From: Prorocentrum cordatum
Taxonomy: Eukaryota
Length of the DNA stretch: 55,176 nucleotides
NCBI GenBank assembly: GCA_963575745.1
Contig: CAUYUJ010000180.1
Span: 62,001 to 117,176, forward strand
Direction of reading: 5' to 3'
A program made the translations under genes and the position numbers. Positions 10,398 to 53,460 of the stretch are shown piece by piece (the first letter of the stretch is position 1; the number at the start of each line of letters is the position of its first letter). Below the pieces are notes generated by a model. It saw only the letters and a list, made by a program, of their open reading frames with translations. It was not told where the DNA came from and ran no database searches.

Positions 10398-19881
<9,484 letters not shown>

Positions 19882-21162: not shown

Positions 21163-21461
21163 AATTATTTGTCCGCCCCTTGCGGTCTCCAGCGCTTAAC
21201 CGAAGCGCCTCCCGAGGCGAGAGGGCCCGATGGGGGGGGGGGGGGGGGGGGCGCTCCCTCATCCGCCCCCGCCCCCCCCCCCCCCTCCCCGTTCTCAACT
21301 GCGCGCGCGGTGCGAAGCAGGCGACGCCCGTCCCCATGTCTTTCTTTAGCTCCGATGGCGGTACCTTCGCGTCGTCCACTTGGCACGCTCATCTAGCCAT
21401 CGCCGGCGCCACTTGTTTCCCCAGCGGGGCGCGACAGCGGGACCCCCCCTTTCACGCCATC

Positions 21462-24400
21462 ATGCCGCTAATGCTGTATGCACCCCCTTCTCAGTTGTCA
21501 TCCGACTTCCGTCTCAGCGACCAGCTTTCCCCATTGCAGCTCGTGGTTGCCATAGCTTGCTTTCTCACAGGGGAGGCTTCCCAGAGCATAGACTTCCTGG
21601 AGTCGCTCTGCGGCGGCGTGGGGAACGTCGAGGATTCGCAGATGGGCGGCGAACTGATGGAGTTCACGATGCAGGAGTCTCCTGGGAGACGGGCGGGGGT
21701 GATCGAGGGTCTGTGATATCTCTGGGATCGTTGTTTTTACGTCGGGTGGTGTTCGGCTGTTTTTTTTTTCATGTTTTTATTTTGTTGTTTTCATGTGGCC
21801 CTAGGCCCCCGGCACATCCCCGGCATATCCCCAGGGTGGGTTTGAGAGGATGTATCGATTGAGGGCCCTCTACACAGAAAGGGCCCCGGCATATTCCCGG
21901 CATATCTCACCTGGCCACATAAAATCATGAAAAACAGACATAAAATAACTGAGGCCGCAGACGCTGTTATCGTAAACATCGGGCGGCCAATCCAGTTCGC
22001 AAGGCGCGGCAGGCCCCCCGCTCCAGGGTGGCTGGTGCTCCCTCTTTCCAGCCTGTGCCGGACGCCAGGGCGACGGGGCTGGTGGTGGAGGGCGTCGAGC
22101 CTCGCTCCCTTCCCTCACCGGCCCCGTCGCCCTCCCCCCCTGCTCATTTGCCTCCTCATCCCCTTCATCTTCCTCCTCCTCCTCATCCCTCTGCTATTCC
22201 TCCTTCGTCGTCCTCCCCGTCCTCCTCTTCCTCCTTCTCTCCGTCCGTCTTCCCCCCCCTCATCCCCCTCCTGCTCCTAATCCTCCCCACCCTTCCCTCG
22301 AGGGGGCTTCTGCGCCCGAGATCAGGACCTTGCTGATCGCGCGGTGGAAGAGCACCCGCGAGGCGGCCATGCGCGTCGCATCTTGCGTGCTGCGAAGAGC
22401 GACGTCTCTGAGAAGTCCCCGGCCTGCGAGCACACCCAGCCTGACCACAACTCCAAGGAGTGGGGTTGGGTTTTGTCAGACGTGCCGACTGCTGATTTCT
22501 GGTTTCATTGTTCGATCCCCGAACCCACATTATTCCCTACCTAGGCTTTGCCTAGAATGGGTTCTTACCCTGCATGTTAAAAGGGGCCAGGCAGTGGGGC
22601 TCGCCCTGGGCGGTTCCCCCGGCATCCGCCCCGCGGTTCCCCCTGTCCCTTGGGAGCTTTAGCTTTAGCTTTAGCTTCAGCTTAGCTTTAGCTTAGCTTG
22701 AGCTTAGCTTGAGCTTAGCTGTAGCTTAGATTTAGCTTAGATTTATTAGCTTAGGTTTAGCTTACCTTCAGCTTAGCTTCATCTGTACCTTAGCTTTAAT
22801 TTCGACTTTGCTTAGCATTAGCGTAGCTTTAGCTTCGCTTTAGCTTAGTTTGAGCCTAGCTTCAGCTTAGCTTTAGCTTAGCTTTAGCTTAAGTGTAGCG
22901 TAGCTTTAGCTTAGTTATAGCTTAACTGTAGCTTAGATTTAGCATAGTTGCTGCTCAGCTTTAGCTTAGCTTTATCTTAGCTTTAGTTTAGCTTTAGCTT
23001 AGATTTAGCCCAGCGTTAGCTTAGCTTTAACTTAGCTTCAGCTTAGCTTTAGCTTAGCTGTACCTTATATTTGGCTTAGCTGTAGCTTAACTTTAGCTTA
23101 GCTTTACCGCAGCTGTAGCTTAGTTTTAGCCTAGCTGTAGCTTAGCTTGAGCCTAGCTTTGGCTTGGTTGTAGCTTAGCTTTAGCCCAGTTTCCAACTAA
23201 CTTTAGCTTAGCTTCAGCTTAGCGTCAGCTTATCTTCAGCTTAGCTACAGCTTAGTTAGCTTTCTCTTAACTTTAGCTTAGCGTTAGCTGATCTTCAGCT
23301 TAGCTCCAGCTTAGCTTTAGCTTAGCTTTAGCTTATATTTAGCTTAGCTTGAGCTCAGCTTGAGCTCAGCTTGAGCTTAGCATTAGCTTAGCTTTAGCTT
23401 AGCTTAAGCTTAGCATTAGCTTAGCTTTAGCTTAGCTTTAGCTTAGCTTTAGCTTAGCTTCAGCTTAGCTTCAGCTTAGTTTAAGCTTAGCTTTAGCTTA
23501 GCTACTACTTCTGTTTTCCTAGGGGCTCCAACTCCTAGGTAGGGTCGCACTGGGAGAATGTTTTTAAACACCTGGAGCTTTTCGGTGTCTGGAGGAGAAC
23601 CAACCGACGTTGCCAGGGTCTTACTAACCGCCCATGAGGAGGCGAGCATGGTTTACAGGGCGATCAGGTTGATGCACGCGCAGGTTCCCAAGCAGCTACT
23701 GCTCACTTGGTTGACCAACGTCCGCTCGTGCATCGACGGTATCTCGGAGGAGGTCGACGACGGGCTCAGGGCAGTTTTCACGGGCAGCGGTTGTTCAGGA
23801 ACTGACATATGGGTGCATGTCGTGGATATGGTCACCAGGTTCTGGGCAAAGGAGTCTGCGAGCAATCCTTTAGTTCTTAGCGACGTTCCAGTCACCCCAG
23901 TCCTTCGCCCCGCCCTCAGCCTGGGTCCAGGACGATTGGGGGGGGCAAGGGGGGGGCGGTGCCTGGCGTGTCCGCTGCCGCAGGAGTATGGCACCCCTGC
24001 GATCAGGGCCTCGCATTCTGTGGCCGCCGAGTCGGACAAGGGTAAACAGAAGTTCTTGCAAACGCAATTCGACATTCCTGTACTCGTCGAGGATATAAAA
24101 GACCTCAGTGCCCCGCGGGCGTGGAATGTCATCAAGGGGTCCCCCTCCATGATCCCGTGGACCAAGATCTTTACTGCTGGGTTCTCGTGCAAGGACTTGT
24201 CTGGCCAAAACAGCAACCGCAAGGCCACGAAACGCAATCTCCAAGCGGGCGAAGGCCCCCGCTGGCATTGCTATCATGGGATATGCTGCATTAGGGCATG
24301 CGCCTTGATTCACTTTGGCCCCGTCCCCCAGACAACTAACGCGCGCCCCAGAGGCGCTCCATGTTCCATGTAGGATTGCTCCCAGGGCCGCCCTCCCCCC

Positions 24401-26143
24401 CAGGGTCTCGGCGCATGGCTTCTGCCCGTGCGTCGCCTTGCTTTGCTACCCCGCCAGGCAGCACCGGGGAGACCTTCGAGGGGGCCAAGCAGCGGATCTT
24501 GAAGACCCGCCCGCACATGTCTTGCCTCGAGAACGTCGTGGCCGTCACCAACCAGGGCCCTTTGGACGATGACGCCGTTCCGTCGCAATCCGACTCCGAG
24601 TTCGTGAAGAAGGTGTTTGAAGATCACGGGTTCATGTGCATTGATTTGGTAGTGAACGCCAGGGAGTACGGAAGCGCCTCAGAGCGGAAGAGATGGTTCT
24701 GCCTCGTTCTCGACGTGCCCGCGCGCCACAAGGAGGAGGTCGAGGCGGCTTTCTTGAACATCATCAACGCCATGAAGATCGGCGAGGGCAGGGTCGAGGA
24801 CTTCTTGCTGGATAATAAGACACTGGCGTCATTCTTGTCGGCGGGGGACAGTGCCGACAGTGCTGACCTGCCGGGCGGCCCGAGGGCCAAGGTGTCGAAG
24901 GGCGATCCGACTTGGAAGGACACCCGCGAGGAGGCCTTCAGCAAGTACGGGCAGCGTTGGCCTCCGGAGCTCAATGATGATCATTTGACCTTCCGCTACA
25001 GGCGGGAATCAGAGGTCGTATACTTCGCCGACGCCATGTTCCCATGTTCGACCCCGGGCCGCTGGGAATTTTTCGATACCAACCACACGCTCGAGCGGAC
25101 GTTCCAGTACCCGCCGCAGCAGGGCGCAGAGTTGCGCAACCCCTGGAAACCATTCGTGCCGACCTTCACGGCCCAGTCCTGCATCGTCGGCCGTTTGGTG
25201 GACCAGGGCGGCGGCGTCAGGATCAAGCGCATCCACGGTCCGCGGGCATAACAGGACACGGTTGCATGATGCGTGTTGTTGGTGCGTCCCCGGGTGATTA
25301 TGGTGCCTCCCACTCGCTATTAATAGAGCATGCCGCATGCTCTACTCTTATCGCGCATGCTGCATGCGCGATAAGAGTAGAGCGCAACCGCGTCCTTCCT
25401 CCTCGCCTCTCCCCCCGTCCCCAGCCTCTTCCCCCTCCTCCTTCTCCGTCGTTCCCCCCCTCCTCCTCGTCGTCGTGGCCCCCCCCCCCCCCCCCCCCCC
25501 CCCCCACCCCGCATGGGGAGGGGGGGGAGGGGGCGCAGGGGGGGGATGGTGAAGGAGGAGGAGGAGGAGGAAGTGGAGGAGGTGGAGGAGGACGAGGAGG
25601 AGAGAGCCCCGCTTTGTTGCGCTCCCTGGGCCTTGTCGGACTTCCCTGAAGGCCCTGGGGCGAGTCCAAATCGGACCCCAATCGACCTTGAGATGGCCCA
25701 AGAGGGCCCCAGGTGCTTTTCAAGTGGGCCCCTGGAGGGTCCCAGGAGGACCACAGAGCGAGATGCGTCCGCATCTCGCTTCGTGGCCCTCTCCGGGCCC
25801 CTCTTGGGCTCCTCGGGCGGCCTTGGGGAGAGTCCAAATGAGACGAGGGCCCGACGAGGGTGCTGCGCCTGTAGGCTTGGAGGCGATGCAGCTCATCGGG
25901 TGGGATTTGTCCTTCTACAAGACGCCCCCCTTCGCAGCCGACGAAGCGGTCACCCCTGACATGCTGTGCGACTTAGCGGGGAACGCTTGGAGCGGCTTCA
26001 GCTTCGCGGCGATCTGCATCGCGGCAATGGGCGCCGCCCCGTGGGAACACTACAAGAAGAAGCCCCCGGCCATTCAGCGCAGCGACAGCGTTGAGTTCAA
26101 CGGGAGCGAGTCCGTTGAGCGGCTGAGCACTGACAGCGACTAG
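21462..26143 (+). CDS. C5 cytosine DNA methyltransferase, DNMT5-like catalytic domain without SNF2, ~633 aa, 6 exons
   Basis: Exons 21462-21674, 22326-22459, 23617-23851, 23984-24254, 24458-25237, 25875-26143 join in frame. Motif I GSGCSGTD, II AAESDKGKQKFL, IV FTAGFSCKDLS (SC rather than PC, as in DNMT5), GSTGETF, VI LENV, VIII YGSASERKRW, IX GLEAMQLIG, X DLAGNAWS. Alternative ATG at 21336; the first two exons are less certain. Confidence 0.88.
22534..23555. mobile_element. Non-autonomous element B copy 2, in methyltransferase intron 2
   Basis: Same head/satellite/tail as copy 1; perfect 11-bp inverted repeat ccctacctagg (22535-22545) / cctaggtaggg (23534-23544). Confidence 0.75.
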
Positions 26144-26863
26144 GGTGGCCGATGACGTGGCCACCAGAGGCAGCCATTACAATAGTTGCCCCCCCTTCGC
26201 GCGCACCGTCGCCCGAACCTCAGGCCTCGGAGCCCTGGGAGCTCAGGAGCCTCAGTAGCCAGTTGCCCAGAAGCCCCAGCCGCCCAGAAGCCCCTGTAGC
26301 CAGTAACGTTAACGGTAACGGCTCGACAGTTCAGAATTTCCCTGATCCATGCCGATATTCGATAAGGGGGCGGGGGGCTGGGGCGCCGCCGAAACTGTCG
26401 GTTCACGGGCGGTTCGGCCTCTTTTTTTTGAGGGCGGGCGCGAAGACGCCTGGTTAGCAGCGAGCCAGTGACGTCGTTCTTTGACATGCGAGCATCGGGG
26501 CGCCAAAAACAACACGCCTCGCTCGCCGTCCCGAGCCGCTCGCCTGGCAGATGGGCCCCACCCTAAAGTCGGGGGCGTCGGTTGTCGGGGGGAGTGGGGA
26601 AACCGCCGCAGCCGCTTACCTCAGGGATTGGCTGGCGGCCTGCAGTTGGCCTTCCTGCCCTTGCGGGTCGAAGTTGGGGGGGGGGTCCACGTGGCAAGTC
26701 TTGGCCTTGGCTTGCCTTGAGGGGGGGGGGCCCTCGCATCTTCGCATCGGCGATGCATCGCTGCGCTAGTCGCTTGGCGCTCGTCTCTCGGTGCCCCCCT
26801 TCTCGGGCGCCCTGGGCCTGCGTTTCCTACGGGCCCCCCCCATGACCGCGCAGCTCTCCCGGG

Positions 26864-29800
26864 ATGGACACCTGGGGGTTGGGCGCCACTGGCGCGGTCG
26901 GCATCGCGGAGGACATGCCGCCCCCTCTTGCCCCTCACGCCGAGCAGCGGGCGCGCCCGAAGAGGGCCAAGACGAGGGCCGGGAGCCAGGCCTCGGGAGA
27001 GTTGGAACCGACAGATCGATAGAGGATCCCAACAACGGGTTTCGCGGTGGCTTGCAGGTTGTAGATGATTCGATCTGCGTATTCTTAGTGATTGTTTGGA
27101 TGGGCGTTGGGTCCGAGCCCGAGGGCCCCGATGGGGCTTTCATGTTCATCTCCAGGGACTCGTCGGTGCGTTGCGCATCTCGGTCTGGGTATGGCAGTTG
27201 AGCATGTCATCCTGGATTCCTAACCTTTGATATCGGATGTCACCCTGGATGTCCTCCCCACTTCCACGCCCCGAGGTTAAGGCCGCCTTCCTCCTCCTCC
27301 CCCTCCTCCTCCGCCTCCTGCTCCTCTCCCTCCTCCTCCTGCCTCTTTTCCCTTCGCCCTCCTTGCCCCCCCGCTTCCACTTCGCCTCCTCTCCTCTCCT
27401 CTCCTCTCCTCTCCTCTCCTCTCCTCTCCTCTCCTCTCCTCTCCTCTCCCCTCCCTCGCCCCGACCCCCGCCATCCCCCCCTCCCTCTGCCCCCCTCTCC
27501 TCCTCCCCCGAGCCCCGGGCTGACGGCGAGTCCGCGACCTCGGCCGCGAAGCCCCGGGCCAAGTTCACGTGCAAGCAGAAGTGCGCGGCCAAGACCAACG
27601 GCAAGCAGTGCACGACGTGCAACGCGTTCGACCACGACGCGGACCCCGTGACCCCGAGCGTCAACCGCGTGTGGGCGTCCTACAAGAAGATCACGCCCCC
27701 CGGCGGTGCGTCCGACGAGATCTATGAGGTGCAGCTGGAGACGGAAGGGTCGACCTGTTGGTACTGCTTCAGGCCCCTGCAGCCCGAAGCCCACAGGCCG
27801 CGCGCACGCTGCAAGCCCCTCCTTTGACGGCGAGGTGCCGATTGGCATTTCCGAAGCGCAGGCGTCGGCATCTCGCCGCGCGGATGGCGGCGCGCAGCGT
27901 GCTCGTTGGCCGGGAAGGGCAGGGTGAAGAGGAGGAGCGGAGAGGAGGAGGAAGAAGGGGGAGGAGGAGGAGGAGGAGGAGGAGGAGGAGGAGGAGGAGG
28001 AGGAGGAGGAGGAGGAGGAGGAAGGGAGGGGGGGGAGGGGGATGGGGGAGAATGAGGAGGGAGGGAGAGGAGGAGGAGGAGGAGGAGGAGGAAGAGCCTC
28101 GCTTGAGCAACGGCCCCAACCCCAGGGTATGGAACGTGCACTATTCCCATGAAACGCTCTCGAAGTTCAAGGCTTCCCTCGGTGAGAAGCATGCCGTCTT
28201 CGAGCAATTCAACAGGCTGGTCGCTTGGCTGATATCGCACCTCATCAGCATATTGAAGGACGGCGCGGCCCGCGACAGCGTGTACATCACCACTTGGCCC
28301 AGCCCAGCTTCCATCTCCCAGATGGACATCCAGCAGACCAAGTGGATCAGGCCGCAGGACGAGTACATGGCGCTCGAGGCCTACACCAGGCTGAAGGGGG
28401 ACCCCGAGCATAACGGTTTGGGCCACAGGAAGGAGAAAGGCCCAGACGGGGTGGATTTGGTGAACATGGGCAACAACGGCATCTGGAAGAAGGAGGTATC
28501 GACGATATTCAGAGCAGAGAAAAAGAGGATCGCGACGTGAATTGCCATCGGCCCATCCGACCGAGCTTCCAGGGGTGCTTCGGTTCAAAACCGACCCAGG
28601 TGTGTTTGGCCTTATGTGGCTAGTGGGTTCTTCGCGCTTTTCCTGGTCTTGTTTGAGTTTTCAATGGGCCGCGTGTCGGTATTCCTGTCGCAATCCTCCC
28701 AGGACGATCGACGACGGCACGGATGTGACTACCCGGCAGTTCGTGGGCACGAGGTTCAACCAGGTAGTCCAGGGCATGGGCATGGGCGCGGTCGCGGGCC
28801 ACGCCGTGGGCTCCCAGAGCGCTGGTGGCCCATCCTCATCTGGTTCGGGGGGCGTGGCGCCACTGCCTCCGACGACTCCTCCGAGGCCGCGGGCCGCGCC
28901 GCCCGTGGTCTCTCCGGCGGCGGCGGCGTTGGCCGCGTCGGGCGCTGGCGACGCCCCTGCGCCAGCTAGCGGCAGCGCTCCCCCGCCCGCCGCAGACGGT
29001 GGCGACCTAGCCGCGGCGGCGCCCAAGGCGAAGGGGAAGGCGGCTCGCGCCAAGAAGAGGGCGTCCTCGGCGGGCGCGGCGAGCGAGCCCGCCCAGCCTG
29101 CGGGCAAGAAGAGAGGCGGGGGCGGAGGCGGCAGGGGGAGGCCAACTCGGGACTCTCTATCCTTGCTGCAGACTGCCATGCGCGACCTCAAGGACTGCCA
29201 GAATAATTCGGCGAAGTATTTCGGGAGTGAGTGGAAGAACGTGAAGCGCAACTGGGAGAACTACCTGAGGGACTTGTCCGACCTCATCGAGACGGAGGAG
29301 GACGCTGCCTCTGTCAAGGACCTGCAGCTTCTCGAGAAGCAGGTGCAGGCTGCCAAGACGGTGCTCTCCAAGATCGCGTCGGCAGGGATGTCTAGCAAGA
29401 ACACCTTGGACACGTTCGAGTGCCAGCTTGGCTTCTTGCAGAAGGACTCGGTGAGAGCCTCGCGGTCCGCTGATCTCCGCGATGCCACTGGGGCGCCAGG
29501 CGGACTTGGCCCCGGCGGCAATTCGACGTTGACATTGCCGCCAGGTGCCAAGCCAGCTCGGCCCTGCAGCGACATCCTTGAGATCAGTGGGCTGTTGTTG
29601 GGCTCTTTCCCGCAGGAGCCGCAGGCGGCGTCGCCGTTCCCCTCCTTCCTCATGCGCATATTGCACCAGCAGTGCAGCGCTGACGCTTGGCCCGCGGAGA
29701 GTTTCTGGAACAAGTTGCGCCCGGCGGTTCTCGAGGCTTTCGTGTCTGAGGATAAGATGGGAGGATTCGTCATGGACGTTGTGGGCGACAAAACGATGAT

Positions 29801-32800
29801 GATCTGTCAGAACGCCGAGAACGTCGAGGTCGCCAAGCAAGACCTGGCTAGCATGTGTCAGGTGTTCGAGGAGCGCTTCGTGAGCCAGGGCTCCCCAGCG
29901 GGCCGCGGGCCTTAACCGCGCAGAGACCGTTGCCGCAAACGGTGCCCCTCCTCTCCTCTTCTTTCCTCCTTTCCTCTCCTCTCCTCTCCTCTCCTTCTCG
30001 TCTTTCCTCTCCTCTCCTCTCCTCTCCTCTCCTCTCCTCTCCTCTCCTCTCCTCTCCTCTCCTCTCCTTTCCTCTCCTCCCTTCTCTTCTCCTCTTCTTT
30101 CTCTTTCCTCTCCTCCCGCGCCTCATGTCCTCCTCCTGCCCTCCCCCCTCCCCCCGCCCCCCACTGGGAAGGAGGGCGAGGAGGGCGGGGGGGGGAGGGG
30201 GGGAGGAGGGGCAGGAGGAGGAGGAGGAGGATGAGGAGGAGGAGGAGGAGGAGGGGGGAGGGCGAGGAGGAGGGCGAAGCAGGGGGGTCGGAGGAGGAGG
30301 AGGAGGAGGAGCCCCCCCTCTGGGCCCCGGGGCCAGGCCCCATCTCCCCCCTCCTGGATCGCGTCTGGGGGTGGGGGAATTGCGTGCGAGCAGCGCGCAA
30401 TCGGATACCTAGTTTGGCTGTTGTGTGAGGGGCAGGGGGATCGAGCGTGATATCGAGGTCAGCTTTTTCGCCACCAGGAGGGCATGTCGGTTGTTCACGC
30501 GGAGCTGAAGGAGCTCAAGGTTGTTCTGGGGCACGGCGATGGCGATCCAACCGTTCTGGAGAACACGCTTCGCGGCTGGCCAACCACCAAGATGTCGTCG
30601 GCCCTCGGCGCTTATCCACTGGGCCGGGAGGTATTCAAGCAGGCGAAGGGGTCAGTCCAGAAATTGAAGGACAGGGTGACGAACACGAAGGACATGAAGG
30701 CAAAGATGGAGATTCCTTTGGATCAGTTGAGCATTGACGACATCAAAGACGTGAACAGCATGCTTCAGCAGCGGGAGCTCCTCATCAACCCAGACGATAT
30801 TGTCGAGAAGGAATGGGGCGTGGGAGTCGCCCGCAAGTACCTTGACCAGTTCTACTCGATCTATTTGACGGGTACCACGTCGATGGATCAGGCTCCAGCT
30901 CTTCGCGCCAGCCTGGAGGCGCTGGCCAGCTGCCAGGCTCTGCACAATCTTCATCCCGAGGTGGCCCAGCAGAGGTTCGGCGAGATGTACCACCGCGCCC
31001 ATGCTTGTTGCCAGTTCTTTGACAGGTATTCGGCCAGGGCCAGCCAGAAGGTTATTTCCCATGAGGACGCCATTGACGTCCTCTTCGGCTTGGAGAAGTG
31101 GAAGAACGACCAGGCCCTCCTGGATGTCATGTACTCTAGCTGTGGTGAACGAGGCGATCTGGAACAGACCGTGTCGCGCTCTTCGCTGGGCATGGCGCGG
31201 CCCCGATGCCGAAGCAATCGAGGATGCAGGATATCTTATATATCCTGCATCCTTGATTGCTTCGGCATCGGGGCGACGCCGTGACCAGCGAGATGCGGCA
31301 AGCTCTGGATAGCAGATCCCAGGTCGGAGCGCTCTGAGTCGTTGGTTTGATGTCGCCGCCGGGTCCGAGCTCAGCAAGCGCTGCAAAGCCGTTGCCAAGC
31401 AGAAGGTCGAGAACGTCGAAGAGTCCATCAAGGCTTTAATCGCCAACGTTTTTTCCAACAAGTGCGGCGTCGACTGCGACATGGACGTGGTGGCGAGCGC
31501 CAGGATCGAGGGCGACGTCGCCACCGCCGTTGGCATTGTCAATTCCTTGCCTGGTCACGCTGTCATGGGTGTCGAGATCCAGTTCGCTTCGCACTACTTG
31601 AAGATGATGCAGAGTTACTCCCGCCTGGTCACTTGCTGGAAAGCGGCCGTGGACGCGAAGGGCAGGCAGATCAGCAGCGAGATGGTGACGCTGGTCCAGT
31701 GCCTGCGCAACGACGCCAAAGTCTGCAAGGACTTCACCCGCAGCCAGTCCTTCGGCCCGAGCGCGCTGTTCCAGTACAGCGCTGACATTGCAGTGCGCCT
31801 GGCCAACAGCAGGATCAACATCGCTTGGGACCTTTCCGAGCTGCCTGCCACGTTCGCCGCCGCCGAGGCTTTGGCGGGCGAGATCGTGTCTGAGTGGGCC
31901 AAGAACGCCTCCGAGTTGGTCAACTTGGTAAGCGGCTGGATGATCACTGACTGGCAGGTCCACAAGAACTCCATCTTGGACGACGAGCACAAAGAGCTCG
32001 TTCAGAGGATGATGAACAACGAGAACTACGGGCGCTGCGGGAAGGGCGCCAGCCTCCTTTGCTCGTGGAAGACTTGGTTGAAGGAGATCAACAATGACGG
32101 CTGTGGCATCGTGATCGGCCCCACGGAGTTCGCCAAGATAGACTCGTGCATCACTTCGGCCACGGAGTATTGCGAGATGACCTTGTCGCTTCACAAGGTT
32201 CTCAACGTGGTGCCCATGACGCGCAACGTCAACTTGAGGAAGGCGGCGGCCAAGAAGTTCCTCGAGGACCTGGGGGTGCCGGGCGAGGGAGGGGGAGGAT
32301 GAGGGGGGGAAGGAGGGGGGGAGGGAGGGAGGAGGAGGAGGAGGAGGAGGAGAGGAGGAGGAGGAGGAAGAGGATGTCCTCAGGGAGTGGGAAGGGAGGG
32401 GGGACGAGGGAAGGCGATGGGGGGAGGGGGGGACAAGGTGGACAGGATAGAGGGTAGGTGAAGCAGTAGGTGGAGGAGGCACGAGGAGCAGGGGGGGAGG
32501 GGGGGGGGGAGGGGGATGGGGGATTGGCAAAGTGCACCCCCGATCTTCCGCCTCCTCCTCATCCTCCTCCTCCCCTCCCCTCCTCCTCCTCCCCTCCTCC
32601 TCCTCCTCCTCCTTCCTCCTCTCCCTCCTCCTCCTCCTCCTCCTCCCTCCGCCTCCTCCTCCTCCTCCTCCTCCTCCTCCTCCTCCTCTTCCCCCCCCAT
32701 CCTCCTCCCCCTCCTCTTCCTCCTCCTCTTTCTCCTCCTCCACCCCCTCTCCCACTGCTTCCCCCCTCCCCAACCAGGGGCCTCCTCCTTGGATCCTCCT

Positions 32801-52458: not shown

Positions 52459-53460
52459 GGACCAAGGTAAACCCAAGACTCATCAACGATGTTGAAATAC
52501 ACCTTCTCTCTCAGATCCCTCTTCATAGGCCCTTTTTAAAGGGGTTATTTTTACTGAGGGAATTGTCTCGTTGGGGGGCAACCGTGTGAATATCTAGAAG
52601 CGTGCCAATGCACCATTTTCATGACTTCAACGCCACGAGTTAACCTGACTGTTACCTCTTGGCGATCCTGAATCATGCCAGAACACCATTCCTGGGATTT
52701 CAACACCGCGAATAACCGTAACTGTTGCGCCCTGGCAATCTTGAGTTGTTCCGAGACGCCGTTTCTGGTACGTTAATCTTGAGAACCAGTGAAACGCTTT
52801 AAAACGATGGTGCGCGGCGCTAAGGCGAGAGCCACATTCTGAAAACGAACCGCCCTCAATCCGTGAAGCTCTTGCGAACTTTTAAGGCGAATGCGCGCGG
52901 CGCCAAGGCGATGGCCACATTTTGAGGACGAGCATCCCTCCATCCGTGAGGGTCTTGCAACCTGTTCAGACGAGTGCGCGCGGCGCTGAGGTTAGAGCCA
53001 CATTCTAAAAACGACCCGCCCCCCATCCGTGAAGCTGTTGCAAGCTTTGAGGACGAATGCGTGCGGCACGAAGGCGCGAGCCACATTTTGAAAACGAACT
53101 GACATCAATGCGTAAAGCTCTTGCAGTTTTGAAACGAATGTGCGCGGCGAGAGGACAAGAGCCACATCTGAAAACGACCCGCCCTCCATCCGAGTGTGCG
53201 CGGCGCCCAGGCGAGAGCCACATTTTGAAAACGACCCGCCCTCAATCCGTGAAGCTCTTGCAAATATTTGAAACGAATGTGCGCGGTGCTATTGCGAGAG
53301 CCACATTTTGGAAGCGACCCGCCCTCCATCTATGAAGGTGTTGTCATTTTGAAGCATCAGGGTCGTACGTGGTGAGGAAGTCTCAGGCGCAACACCCGGC
53401 CCGCCCTTTCGACCGGCCTCGGGGTGCGATAGGGAGGAGTTATTTATAAGGGAAAGGAAA
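52459..53460 (+). mobile_element. Dispersed repeat family C copy with expanded ~80-bp subrepeat array
   Basis: Same termini as 51294-52027; about 7 gcgcggc..ag.gccacattttgaaaacgacccgccctc units. Confidence 0.8.

What the first reader, a model, noticed from the sequence alone, without database searches (positions are those of the whole stretch)
21462..26143. Stand-alone DNMT5-like methyltransferase lacking the SNF2 ATPase
Seen: C5-MTase motifs I, II, IV, VI, VIII, IX and X in canonical order, with DNMT5-style CSGT motif I, GxSC motif IV, GxTF and DLAGNA; the stop follows about 50 aa after motif X. Established: canonical DNMT5 is fused to RING and SNF2 domains and, in Cryptococcus, needs ATP for maintenance specificity. 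Inference: this SNF2-less, intact, catalytic-Cys-retaining enzyme may be an ATP-independent de novo methylase with a novel ~150-aa N-terminus.
Basis: partly seen in the sequence, partly recalled or inferred. Interest (0 to 1): 0.7.

Follow-up and report, generated by a model that had tools for sequence, protein, structure and literature searches.

The report
Dinoflagellate DNMT5-type methyltransferase without SNF2

Summary
The motifs are real. Three + strand ORF pieces match a profile of 39 full-length relatives at E 2.6e-81, 2.5e-44 and 3.2e-21. They join into a four-exon, 537-aa gene at 23558-26143 that covers profile positions 18-504 of 520 without a break.

DNMT5 kinship is supported:
- The family profile hits Cryptococcus DNMT5 at 129.5 bits, against 57.6 for M.HhaI.
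- A model of the nearest full-length relative matches DNMT5 best (Z 30.7).
- The window protein carries all four DNMT5-type SAM-pocket substitutions.

Absence of SNF2 is supported:
- Relatives are 460-624 aa, and several end in the same ...SD tail as the window protein.
- No SNF2, helicase or RING match turned up in any window ORF scanned.

Not supported: the exon at 21462 and the '150-aa novel N-terminus'. Untested: ATP independence and de novo activity.

The kind is already published. SNF2-less DNMT5 paralogues of dinoflagellates are described in de Mendoza 2018, Hoguin 2023 (DNMT5c) and the 2025 MBE survey. Interest is low. The open question is how such an enzyme is activated.

The parts
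23558..23851 (+). Exon 1: ATG, N-terminal helices conserved in the family, motif I (GSGCSGT at 23783-23803)
   Evidence: Family profile positions 18-88 match here. Best of 1496 splice models. In-frame TAG at 23540-23542 upstream. The start codon itself is inferred, not shown.
23852..23983 (+). Intron 1, 132 nt, GA...AG, in frame and free of stops
   Evidence: The spliced model scores 540.6 bits against 521.5 with the intron retained. Relatives have no residues here. Boundaries aaag|GA..cag|g.
23984..24254 (+). Exon 2: motif II (AAESD) and motif IV with the catalytic Cys (GFSCKD, 24179-24196)
   Evidence: Family profile positions 85-177. Motif coordinates.
24255..24457 (+). Intron 2, 203 nt, GC...AG
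   Evidence: Frame changes between the ORF pieces. Best splice model gaag|GC..ccag|g.
24458..25237 (+). Exon 3: motifs V, VI (ENV) and VIII (SERKRW), the target-recognition region (WPPE, NPWKP, TFTAQS) and the first half of motif IX
   Evidence: E 2.6e-81 to the family profile, positions 166-435. PF00145 hit at 20.4 bits. 271 database representatives at E<=0.001.
25238..25874 (+). Intron 3, 637 nt, GT...AG, holding poly-C and GGA/CCT low-complexity tracts
   Evidence: Best splice model cacg|GT..gtag|g. Tandem repeats at 25397-25602. The exon-3 frame is closed by TAA at 25249-25251.
25875..26143 (+). Exon 4: second half of motif IX, motif X (AGNAWS, 25976-25993), acidic Ser-rich tail ...STDSD and the stop
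   Evidence: Family profile positions 435-504. The ...SD end recurs in relatives.
22659..23555 (.). 11-bp satellite (TTAGCTTTAGC, about 77 copies) plus a conserved tail of about 40 nt that ends 2 nt before the ATG. This is flank or an upstream intron, not coding sequence.
   Evidence: TRF. A second copy of array plus tail lies at 17000-17867, and similarity stops at 17867 / 23555.
21462..21713 (+). It is not supported as part of this gene.
   Evidence: No hit to the family profile. No hit at E<=1 to any of the 162 stored relatives. No Pfam family. Its codon-position GC (0.63/0.43/0.74) looks coding, so it may belong to some gene.

Best explanation
The feature is an intact nuclear gene of a dinoflagellate-type genome. 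It has four exons at 23558-26143 on the + strand and encodes 537 aa. The product is a stand-alone C5-cytosine DNA methyltransferase whose catalytic and target-recognition domains are of the DNMT5 type. It belongs to a large family of proteins of about 460-620 aa that end shortly after motif X and never carry the RING-SNF2 module. The gene is therefore SNF2-less by descent, not by truncation or a missed exon.

Inferred mechanism, from the C5-MTase family: SAM is bound by motifs I, II, V and X. Cys167 (GFSC) attacks C6 of a flipped-out cytosine, assisted by Glu213 (ENV) and Arg264/Arg266. The DNMT5-like recognition domain between motifs VIII and IX reads the site, most likely CG, the context that is methylated genome-wide in Symbiodinium.

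The protein keeps the four SAM-pocket substitutions that make Cryptococcus DNMT5 depend on its SNF2 motor. It must therefore be activated without a cis ATPase. Whether that happens autonomously or through a partner is not known.
For: Gene model:
- The three ORF pieces match the family profile collinearly.
- The best of 1496 splice models gives 537 aa and 540.6 bits with no stop or frameshift. All three introns have a G before the donor and AG|G at the acceptor.
- Coding-type GC at codon positions: 0.54/0.45/0.80.

Family:
- 271 representatives at E<=0.001. The 150 listed are all 624 aa or shorter.
- Named members come from Prorocentrum cordatum and Polarella glacialis.
- 44.7% identity over 485 residues to P0002, and sister to it in a quick tree (99 SH-aLRT).

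DNMT5 type:
- Family profile against the PDB: CnDNMT5 E 9.5e-37 (129.5 bits), M.HhaI 6.1e-15 (57.6 bits), DNMT1 0.013.
- AF2 model of P0002 (pLDDT 86.7): the top four Foldseek hits are all DNMT5 (E 2.9e-20 to 1.1e-18), with HhaI next at 7.4e-11.
- VIA-align: Z 30.7, 408 residues aligned, 3.2 A to 7r78 residues 318-755; HhaI gives Z 25.1 with 310 aligned.
- Signature residues Cys79, Ser115, Ser166-Cys167 and Thr194 correspond to the CnDNMT5 substitutions listed by Wang et al..

No SNF2:
- 0 SNF2, helicase or RING hits in 216 ORFs of at least 110 aa on both strands.
- 0 such hits in 129 + strand ORFs of 45-109 aa downstream.
- The ...SD tail recurs in 7 of 39 Met-starting relatives and in P0001 and P0002.
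Against: - No expression or splice evidence could be obtained, so exon borders and the start codon rest on homology only.
- The fold test used a relative that is 45% identical, not the window protein. A spliced sequence cannot be handed to the folding tool.
- No tree with DNMT5a/b/c, DNMT6 or DNMT4 references was built, because no reference sequences were reachable. DNMT5 placement therefore rests on families that have solved structures.
- Substrate, CG specificity and DNA rather than RNA as target are inferred.
- Within the family profile set, 7 of 39 members carry the canonical Pro-Cys, so the DNMT5-type pocket is not universal in the family.
Confidence: 0.85

Rival explanations
1. The gene is longer at its 5' end. 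Either the first reader's exon at 21462, or a long DNMT5c-style N-terminal region of about 1000 aa, is spliced onto exon 1 across the satellite.
For: - In Hoguin 2023 Data 4, 13 of the 15 DNMT5c rows shown have PF00145 starting at residue 999 or later.
- ORF 21462-21713 has coding-like GC at codon positions.
- AG dinucleotides follow the TAG at 23540 and could serve as acceptors.
- P0002, the nearest full-length relative, is flagged partial.
Against: - No + strand ORF between 18000 and 23640 resembles any of the 162 stored relatives (best E 0.0069, which is noise). The ORF holding 21462 gets no hit at E<=1.
- Met-starting relatives place the motif-I Cys at residues 22-223, mostly 35-113. The window model places it at 79.
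- All 150 listed relatives are 624 aa or shorter.
Confidence: 0.15
2. It is an unexpressed or decaying paralogue (pseudogene) in a family diversified in copy number.
For: - Dinoflagellate DNMTs are multi-copy (passage).
- The only public protein found for this locus is a 126-aa fragment that starts inside intron 2 (P0003).
Against: - The match to the family profile is full length, with no stop or frameshift.
- All catalytic residues and the 9 invariant columns of the 39-member alignment are kept.
- GC3 is 0.80.
Confidence: 0.07
3. It methylates RNA rather than DNA, as DNMT2 does and as proposed for DNMT6. The Ser-Cys dipeptide also occurs in S. pombe Dnmt2.
For: - Wang et al. note the same Pro-to-Ser change in S. 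pombe DNMT2.
- Stand-alone architecture is typical of DNMT2 and DNMT6 (passage).
Against: - The family profile hits DNMT2 (6fdf) only at E 0.67, against 9.5e-37 for DNMT5.
- About 100 more residues, including the recognition domain, superpose on DNMT5 than on any other MTase.
Confidence: 0.06
4. It is a DNMT carried by a retrotransposon (SymbioLINE-Dnmt or SymbioDIRS-Dnmt3) or by an integrated virus.
For: - Such elements are numerous in Symbiodinium.
- Repeated satellite blocks flank the region.
Against: - The gene has three introns, whereas the retrotransposon DNMTs are intronless.
- No reverse transcriptase, integrase or recombinase Pfam hit in any of the 345 ORFs scanned.
- P0002 found no relative in viral contigs, though that scan detects close relatives only.
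Confidence: 0.03

Closest known systems
SNF2-less Dnmt5 paralogues of dinoflagellates (de Mendoza et al. 2018, PMC5890265; 'DNMT5c' of Hoguin et al. 2023, PMC9998398; 2025 MBE survey, PMC12344493)
   Same: Intron-containing host gene. DNMT5-type methyltransferase domain with no RING, SNF2 or other known domain. Dinoflagellate relatives (Prorocentrum, Polarella). Ser in place of the motif IV Pro.
   Different: Hoguin et al. describe DNMT5c as having a domain-free N-terminus of about 1000 aa, and 13 of the 15 Data 4 rows shown have the MTase from residue 999 onward. This gene and its relatives are about 460-620 aa with motif I near residue 80. Only the Sorites and Prorocentrum minimum rows look like that. 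I could not test whether the two sets are one clade.
Cryptococcus neoformans DNMT5 (PDB 7r76, 7r77, 7r78, 7t02)
   Same: Best sequence-profile and fold match. The catalytic and recognition domains superpose over 408 residues. It shares the Cys (motif I), non-aromatic (motif II), Ser-Cys (motif IV) and Thr (motif V) substitutions in the SAM pocket.
   Different: CnDNMT5 is 2348 aa, with two RING fingers and an SNF2 ATPase that must remodel the MTase. It is a strictly ATP-dependent maintenance enzyme. None of that module is present here, and the sequence of the recognition domain (profile positions 323-432) does not align to Cn residues 563-669.
Bacterial C5 methyltransferases (M.HhaI, M.MpeI, Dcm)
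   Same: Same core fold and the same order of ten motifs.
   Different: The match is much weaker (57.6 bits, Z 25.1 with 310 residues aligned). They have the canonical Phe in motif I and Pro-Cys in motif IV, and no introns. No close relative was found in 185,579 prokaryote genomes, though that scan detects close relatives only.
SymbioLINE-Dnmt and SymbioDIRS-Dnmt3 retrotransposon methyltransferases
   Same: Dinoflagellate C5-MTases without chromatin-reader domains.
   Different: Those are intronless, sit next to or inside reverse-transcriptase ORFs, and belong to Dnmt3 or an orphan lineage. This gene has three introns and no transposon genes nearby.

Membership tests
C5 cytosine methyltransferase (Pfam PF00145) | Motifs I, IV (catalytic Cys), VI (ENV), VIII (RxR), IX and X (GNA) in canonical order | tested here: met
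   All are present and collinear in the spliced model. PF00145 is found in 30 of 39 relatives. On the window's exon 3 alone it scores 20.4 bits, just under the cut-off of 22.
DNMT5 | Methyltransferase domain closer to DNMT5 than to other DNMT or bacterial families | tested here: met
   Family profile against the PDB: DNMT5 129.5 bits, M.HhaI 57.6, DNMT1 16.9, DNMT2 11.3, and no DNMT3 hit at E<=1. DNMT4 and DNMT6 have no solved structure, so they were not compared.
DNMT5 | DNMT5-type fold, including the recognition domain | tested here: met
   Tested on the relative P0002, not on the window protein. The top four Foldseek hits are DNMT5. VIA-align gives Z 30.7 with 408 residues aligned, against 25.1 with 310 for HhaI.
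DNMT5 | SAM-pocket substitutions relative to M.HhaI (F18 to Cys, W41 to non-aromatic, P80 to Ser, L100 to Thr), as listed by Wang et al. | tested here: met
   The window protein has C79, S115, S166 and T194. The list comes from the preprint passage.
DNMT5 | C-terminal RING finger(s) and SNF2 ATPase in the same polypeptide | tested here: not met
   The stop comes 55 residues after motif X. No PF00176, PF00271, PF04851 or RING hit in any of the 345 ORFs scanned. Relatives end at the same point.
DNMT5 | ATP-dependent, hemimethylated-CG-specific maintenance activity | not testable with these tools
   This needs biochemistry.
DNMT5 | Placement inside the DNMT5 clade in a tree with DNMT1 to DNMT6 and bacterial references | not tested
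   No DNMT5a/b/c, DNMT4 or DNMT6 reference sequences were reachable. The word-index searches for longer proteins returned nothing.
DNMT5c (Hoguin et al. 2023) | Dinoflagellate-specific and lacking the SNF2 ATPase | tested here: met
   Named relatives are from Prorocentrum cordatum and Polarella glacialis. No SNF2 was found.
DNMT5c (Hoguin et al. 2023) | Long N-terminal region of about 1000 aa without annotated domains | tested here: inconclusive
   The homology-supported model has 78 residues before the motif I Cys, and relatives are 624 aa or shorter. The 5' end is unverified, and 2 of the 15 DNMT5c rows shown are also short.
Retrotransposon DNMTs (SymbioLINE-Dnmt, SymbioDIRS-Dnmt3) | Intronless ORF adjacent to or fused with reverse transcriptase | tested here: not met
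   The gene has three introns, and no reverse transcriptase, RNase H or recombinase hit was found.

The most novel reading that the evidence does not exclude
The short (about 540 aa) dinoflagellate DNMT5-type enzymes keep all four SAM-pocket substitutions that close the catalytic pocket of Cryptococcus DNMT5 until its SNF2 motor opens it. Yet they have no motor. They may therefore be a naturally uncoupled DNMT5: active on their own, without ATP proofreading, and so able to methylate unmethylated CG de novo. That would help explain the near-complete CG methylation of dinoflagellate genomes. The alternative is that they are opened in trans by a separately encoded partner, which would be a split DNMT5 system. 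The conserved acidic ...SDSD C-terminal tail could be the handle for such a partner.
Probability: 0.3. Interest if true: 0.55.

Novelty: already known. Interest (0 to 1): 0.2.

Why it matters
DNMT5 is the textbook case of a methyltransferase whose specificity is enforced by a fused SNF2 ATPase. Lineages that dropped the motor but kept the 'regulatable' pocket are a natural experiment on that coupling, and dinoflagellates methylate almost every CG.

The loss itself has been in print since 2018, so this locus adds only three things:
- a clean four-exon gene model where the only public protein found for the locus is a fragment;
- the observation that its family is of the short type rather than the long-N-terminus DNMT5c type;
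- the explicit statement that all four pocket substitutions persist.

It is useful as a construct for the activity assay, not as a discovery.

Tried and rejected
- RNA evidence: the look-up of sequencing runs listed no RNA holder for 23530-26200. Junctions and the 5' end remain unverified.
- Whole genome: none is held for this window. Copy number and a separately encoded DNMT5-type SNF2 could not be searched.
- Fused or longer relatives: the search for homologous proteins with exon 3 ('longer', 455-2000 aa) and with the 39-member alignment ('longer', 1093-3120 aa) returned nothing. The tool itself calls this weak evidence. The 'near' search gave only 4 hits.
- The search for related loci: alignments A1 and A3 were too diverse to seed a scan. 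Single-protein scans of viral, prokaryote-genome and metagenome contigs found no relative. These scans detect close relatives only.
- Earlier findings of this scan: none for this genome or sequence. The word search returned only unrelated SNF2-methyltransferase notes from other genomes.
- A careful maximum-likelihood tree did not finish in 300 s, so only the quick tree is reported.
- The Supplementary Figures PDF of Hoguin et al. (file 11) could not be read. Supplements of de Mendoza 2018, which list the Symbiodinium Dnmt5 genes, were not opened, so this exact gene may already be catalogued there.
- Rejected reading: that in-frame intron 1 is coding. The spliced model scores 19 bits higher, and relatives have no insert there.
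Full report
**What is in the sequence.**
The window is eukaryotic DNA of 46-66% GC. It has many low-complexity tracts and no whole genome on hold.
- GSGCSGT (motif I), AAESD (II) and GFSCKD (IV) in ORF 23543-24370.
- STGETF (V), LENV (VI), SERKRW (VIII) and a long recognition region in ORF 24340-25248.
- The second half of motif IX and DLAGNAWS (X) in ORF 25553-26140, followed by a stop at 26141-26143.

Pfam alone is weak on a single exon (PF00145 at 20.4 bits, cut-off 22). A search of 1.84 billion representatives with exon 3 nevertheless found 271 relatives at E<=0.001 and 10 at E<=1e-30.

**Gene model.**
I built a profile (520 positions) from 39 full-length relatives (alignment A1). It matches the three ORF pieces collinearly:
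- positions 18-88 and 85-177, E 2.5e-44;
- positions 166-435, E 2.6e-81;
- positions 435-504, E 3.2e-21.

I enumerated GT/GC/GA donors and AG acceptors around the three gaps. This gave 1496 open models, and the best scores 540.6 bits.
- Exons: 23558-23851, 23984-24254, 24458-25237 and 25875-26143, giving 537 aa.
- Introns: 132 nt (GA..AG), 203 nt (GC..AG) and 637 nt (GT..AG). Each has a G before the donor and a G after the acceptor.

From memory, with no call behind it, mixed GT/GC/GA donors and AG|G acceptors are the habit of Symbiodiniaceae genes. Intron 1 is in frame and free of stops, but retaining it lowers the score to 521.5 bits, and relatives have nothing there. The spliced protein aligns to the profile end to end with no stop or frameshift. 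The coding sequence has GC1/2/3 of 0.54/0.45/0.80. No RNA run could be listed, so the junctions and the start codon rest on homology alone.

**The 5' end.**
I find no support for this.
- ORF 21165-21713 has no hit to the family profile, no Pfam family and no hit at E<=1 to any of the 162 stored relatives.
- The best hit of any + strand ORF between 18000 and 23640 is E 0.0069, which is noise in so small a database.
- 22659-23503 is an 11-bp satellite. The array and a conserved tail of about 40 nt recur at 17000-17867. Similarity stops at 23555, 2 nt before the ATG at 23558.
- An in-frame TAG lies at 23540-23542.
- From ATG 23558 the motif-I Cys is residue 79. In Met-starting relatives it lies at 22-223, mostly 35-113.

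An upstream coding exon cannot be excluded, since 21462-21713 has coding-like GC at codon positions. The '150-aa novel N-terminus' is nonetheless unsupported.

**Is it DNMT5-like?**
Yes, on three tests.
1. The family profile searched against all PDB sequences puts Cryptococcus neoformans DNMT5 first at E 9.5e-37 (129.5 bits). M.HhaI follows at 6.1e-15 (57.6 bits), DNMT1 at 0.013, DIM2 at 0.36 and DNMT2 at 0.67. No DNMT3 chain appears at E<=1.
2. I predicted an AlphaFold2 model of P0002, the nearest full-length relative, which is 44.7% identical to the window protein over 485 residues. Its mean pLDDT is 86.7 and pTM 0.83. Its four best Foldseek hits are the four DNMT5 entries (E 2.9e-20 to 1.1e-18), and HhaI comes next at 7.4e-11. 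VIA-align gives Z 30.7, rmsd 3.2 A and 408 aligned residues to 7r78 residues 318-755. HhaI gives Z 25.1 with 310 aligned. The extra 100 or so residues include the recognition domain.
3. Wang et al. (bioRxiv 10.1101/2021.10.01.462825, passages read) list four SAM-pocket substitutions that set DNMT5 apart from M.HhaI and close its pocket: F18 to Cys, W41 to Ile, P80 to Ser and L100 to Thr. The window protein has Cys79, Ser115, Ser166 (before the catalytic Cys167) and Thr194.

In A1 these states occur in 30, 39 (no aromatic residue), 25 and 24 of 39 sequences. Seven members have the canonical Pro-Cys and form one group in a quick tree. I could not build a tree with DNMT5a/b/c, DNMT4 or DNMT6, because no reference sequences were reachable. 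Membership therefore rests on the families that have solved structures.

**Is SNF2 really absent?**
Yes.
- The 150 listed relatives are all 624 aa or shorter.
- The Atlas shows clusters of 109, 64 and 78 members of about 520-550 aa carrying PF00145 only.
- The window protein ends ...STDSD. P0001 and P0002 and 7 of 39 Met-starting relatives also end in an acidic Ser-rich ...SD, so the stop is ancestral.
- Pfam finds no SNF2_N, Helicase_C, ResIII or RING in 216 ORFs of at least 110 aa on both strands, nor in 129 + strand ORFs of 45-109 aa over the 29 kb downstream.
- The large downstream ORF 28542-29912 has no recognisable family.

There is no reverse transcriptase or recombinase either, and the gene has introns. 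It is therefore not one of the retrotransposon DNMTs.

**What is known.**
- De Mendoza et al. 2018 (PMC5890265, passages) report that Symbiodinium has several exon-rich paralogues of Dnmt5. [quoted passage not shown] The repertoire is shared across dinoflagellates, and these genes probably lay down the pervasive CG methylation.
- Hoguin et al. 2023 (PMC9998398, passages; Supplementary Data 4 rows) name a dinoflagellate-specific DNMT5c that lacks the SNF2 ATPase.

One difference is worth recording. DNMT5c is described with a domain-free N-terminus of about 1000 aa, and 13 of the 15 rows shown place PF00145 at residue 999 or later. This family is of the short type, like the Sorites and Prorocentrum minimum rows. 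I did not open the supplements of de Mendoza 2018, so this very gene may be listed there.

**Mechanism and what stays open.**
- Shown: an intact C5-MTase catalytic set and a DNMT5-type pocket. A DNMT5-type recognition fold is shown for the relative P0002 only.
- Inferred: SAM-dependent methylation of flipped-out cytosine in DNA, probably at CG.
- Not known: whether it prefers hemimethylated DNA, and how a pocket that needs SNF2 remodelling in Cryptococcus opens here. It could also be opened by a partner in trans. I put about 0.3 on the autonomous, de novo-capable reading.

**Verdict.**
The DNMT5-like, SNF2-less interpretation is right, but the kind is already known. Interest is low (0.2).

Noticed in passing
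window 17000-17867 and 22659-23555: Two arrays of the same 11-bp satellite (TTAGCTTTAGC). Each ends in a conserved tail of about 40 nt (TTTCCTAGGGGCTCYAACTCCTAGGTMGGGTCGCAMTGGGA, 83% identical over 69 nt). The second copy stops 2 nt before the DNMT start codon. This could be a dispersed element or a recurrent intergenic spacer.
   Followed up: partly
window 52554-52772 (-): An isolated 33-residue stretch resembling motif IX of the same family (E 2.2e-4 to the family profile, positions 422-453). No other motif lies nearby, so it is either a chance match or a relic fragment of a second copy.
   Followed up: partly
window 24361-24738 (+): The only public protein found for this locus (P0003, 126 aa, EukProt-derived) starts at an ATG inside intron 2 and stops within exon 3. 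The public gene model found here is therefore a fragment.
   Followed up: partly
relatives P0058, P0079, P0081, P0098, P0103, P0118, P0120: Seven of the 39 stand-alone relatives carry the canonical Pro-Cys in motif IV instead of the DNMT5-type Ser-Cys, and they form one group in the quick tree (SH-aLRT 89). The 'regulatable' pocket is thus not fixed in this family.
   Followed up: partly
clusters of P0002 and P0010: Short EukProt peptides labelled Pyramimonas sp. CCMP1952 fall in the same 90%-identity clusters as Prorocentrum cordatum proteins. This suggests dinoflagellate sequence in that green-alga data set.
   Followed up: no
window 25397-25602, 27289-27509, 27929-28096, 29948-30311: Long CCT/GGA, CTCCT and poly-C tracts recur in intron 3 and in the downstream 4 kb. 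They give spurious long ORFs on both strands.
   Followed up: no
window 18853-19881 (+) and 28542-29915 (+): Large ORFs flank the DNMT gene on the same strand. They have coding-like GC3 (0.64 and 0.78) but no Pfam family. The downstream ORF also has no usable Atlas match (the upstream ORF was not sent to the Atlas).
   Followed up: partly
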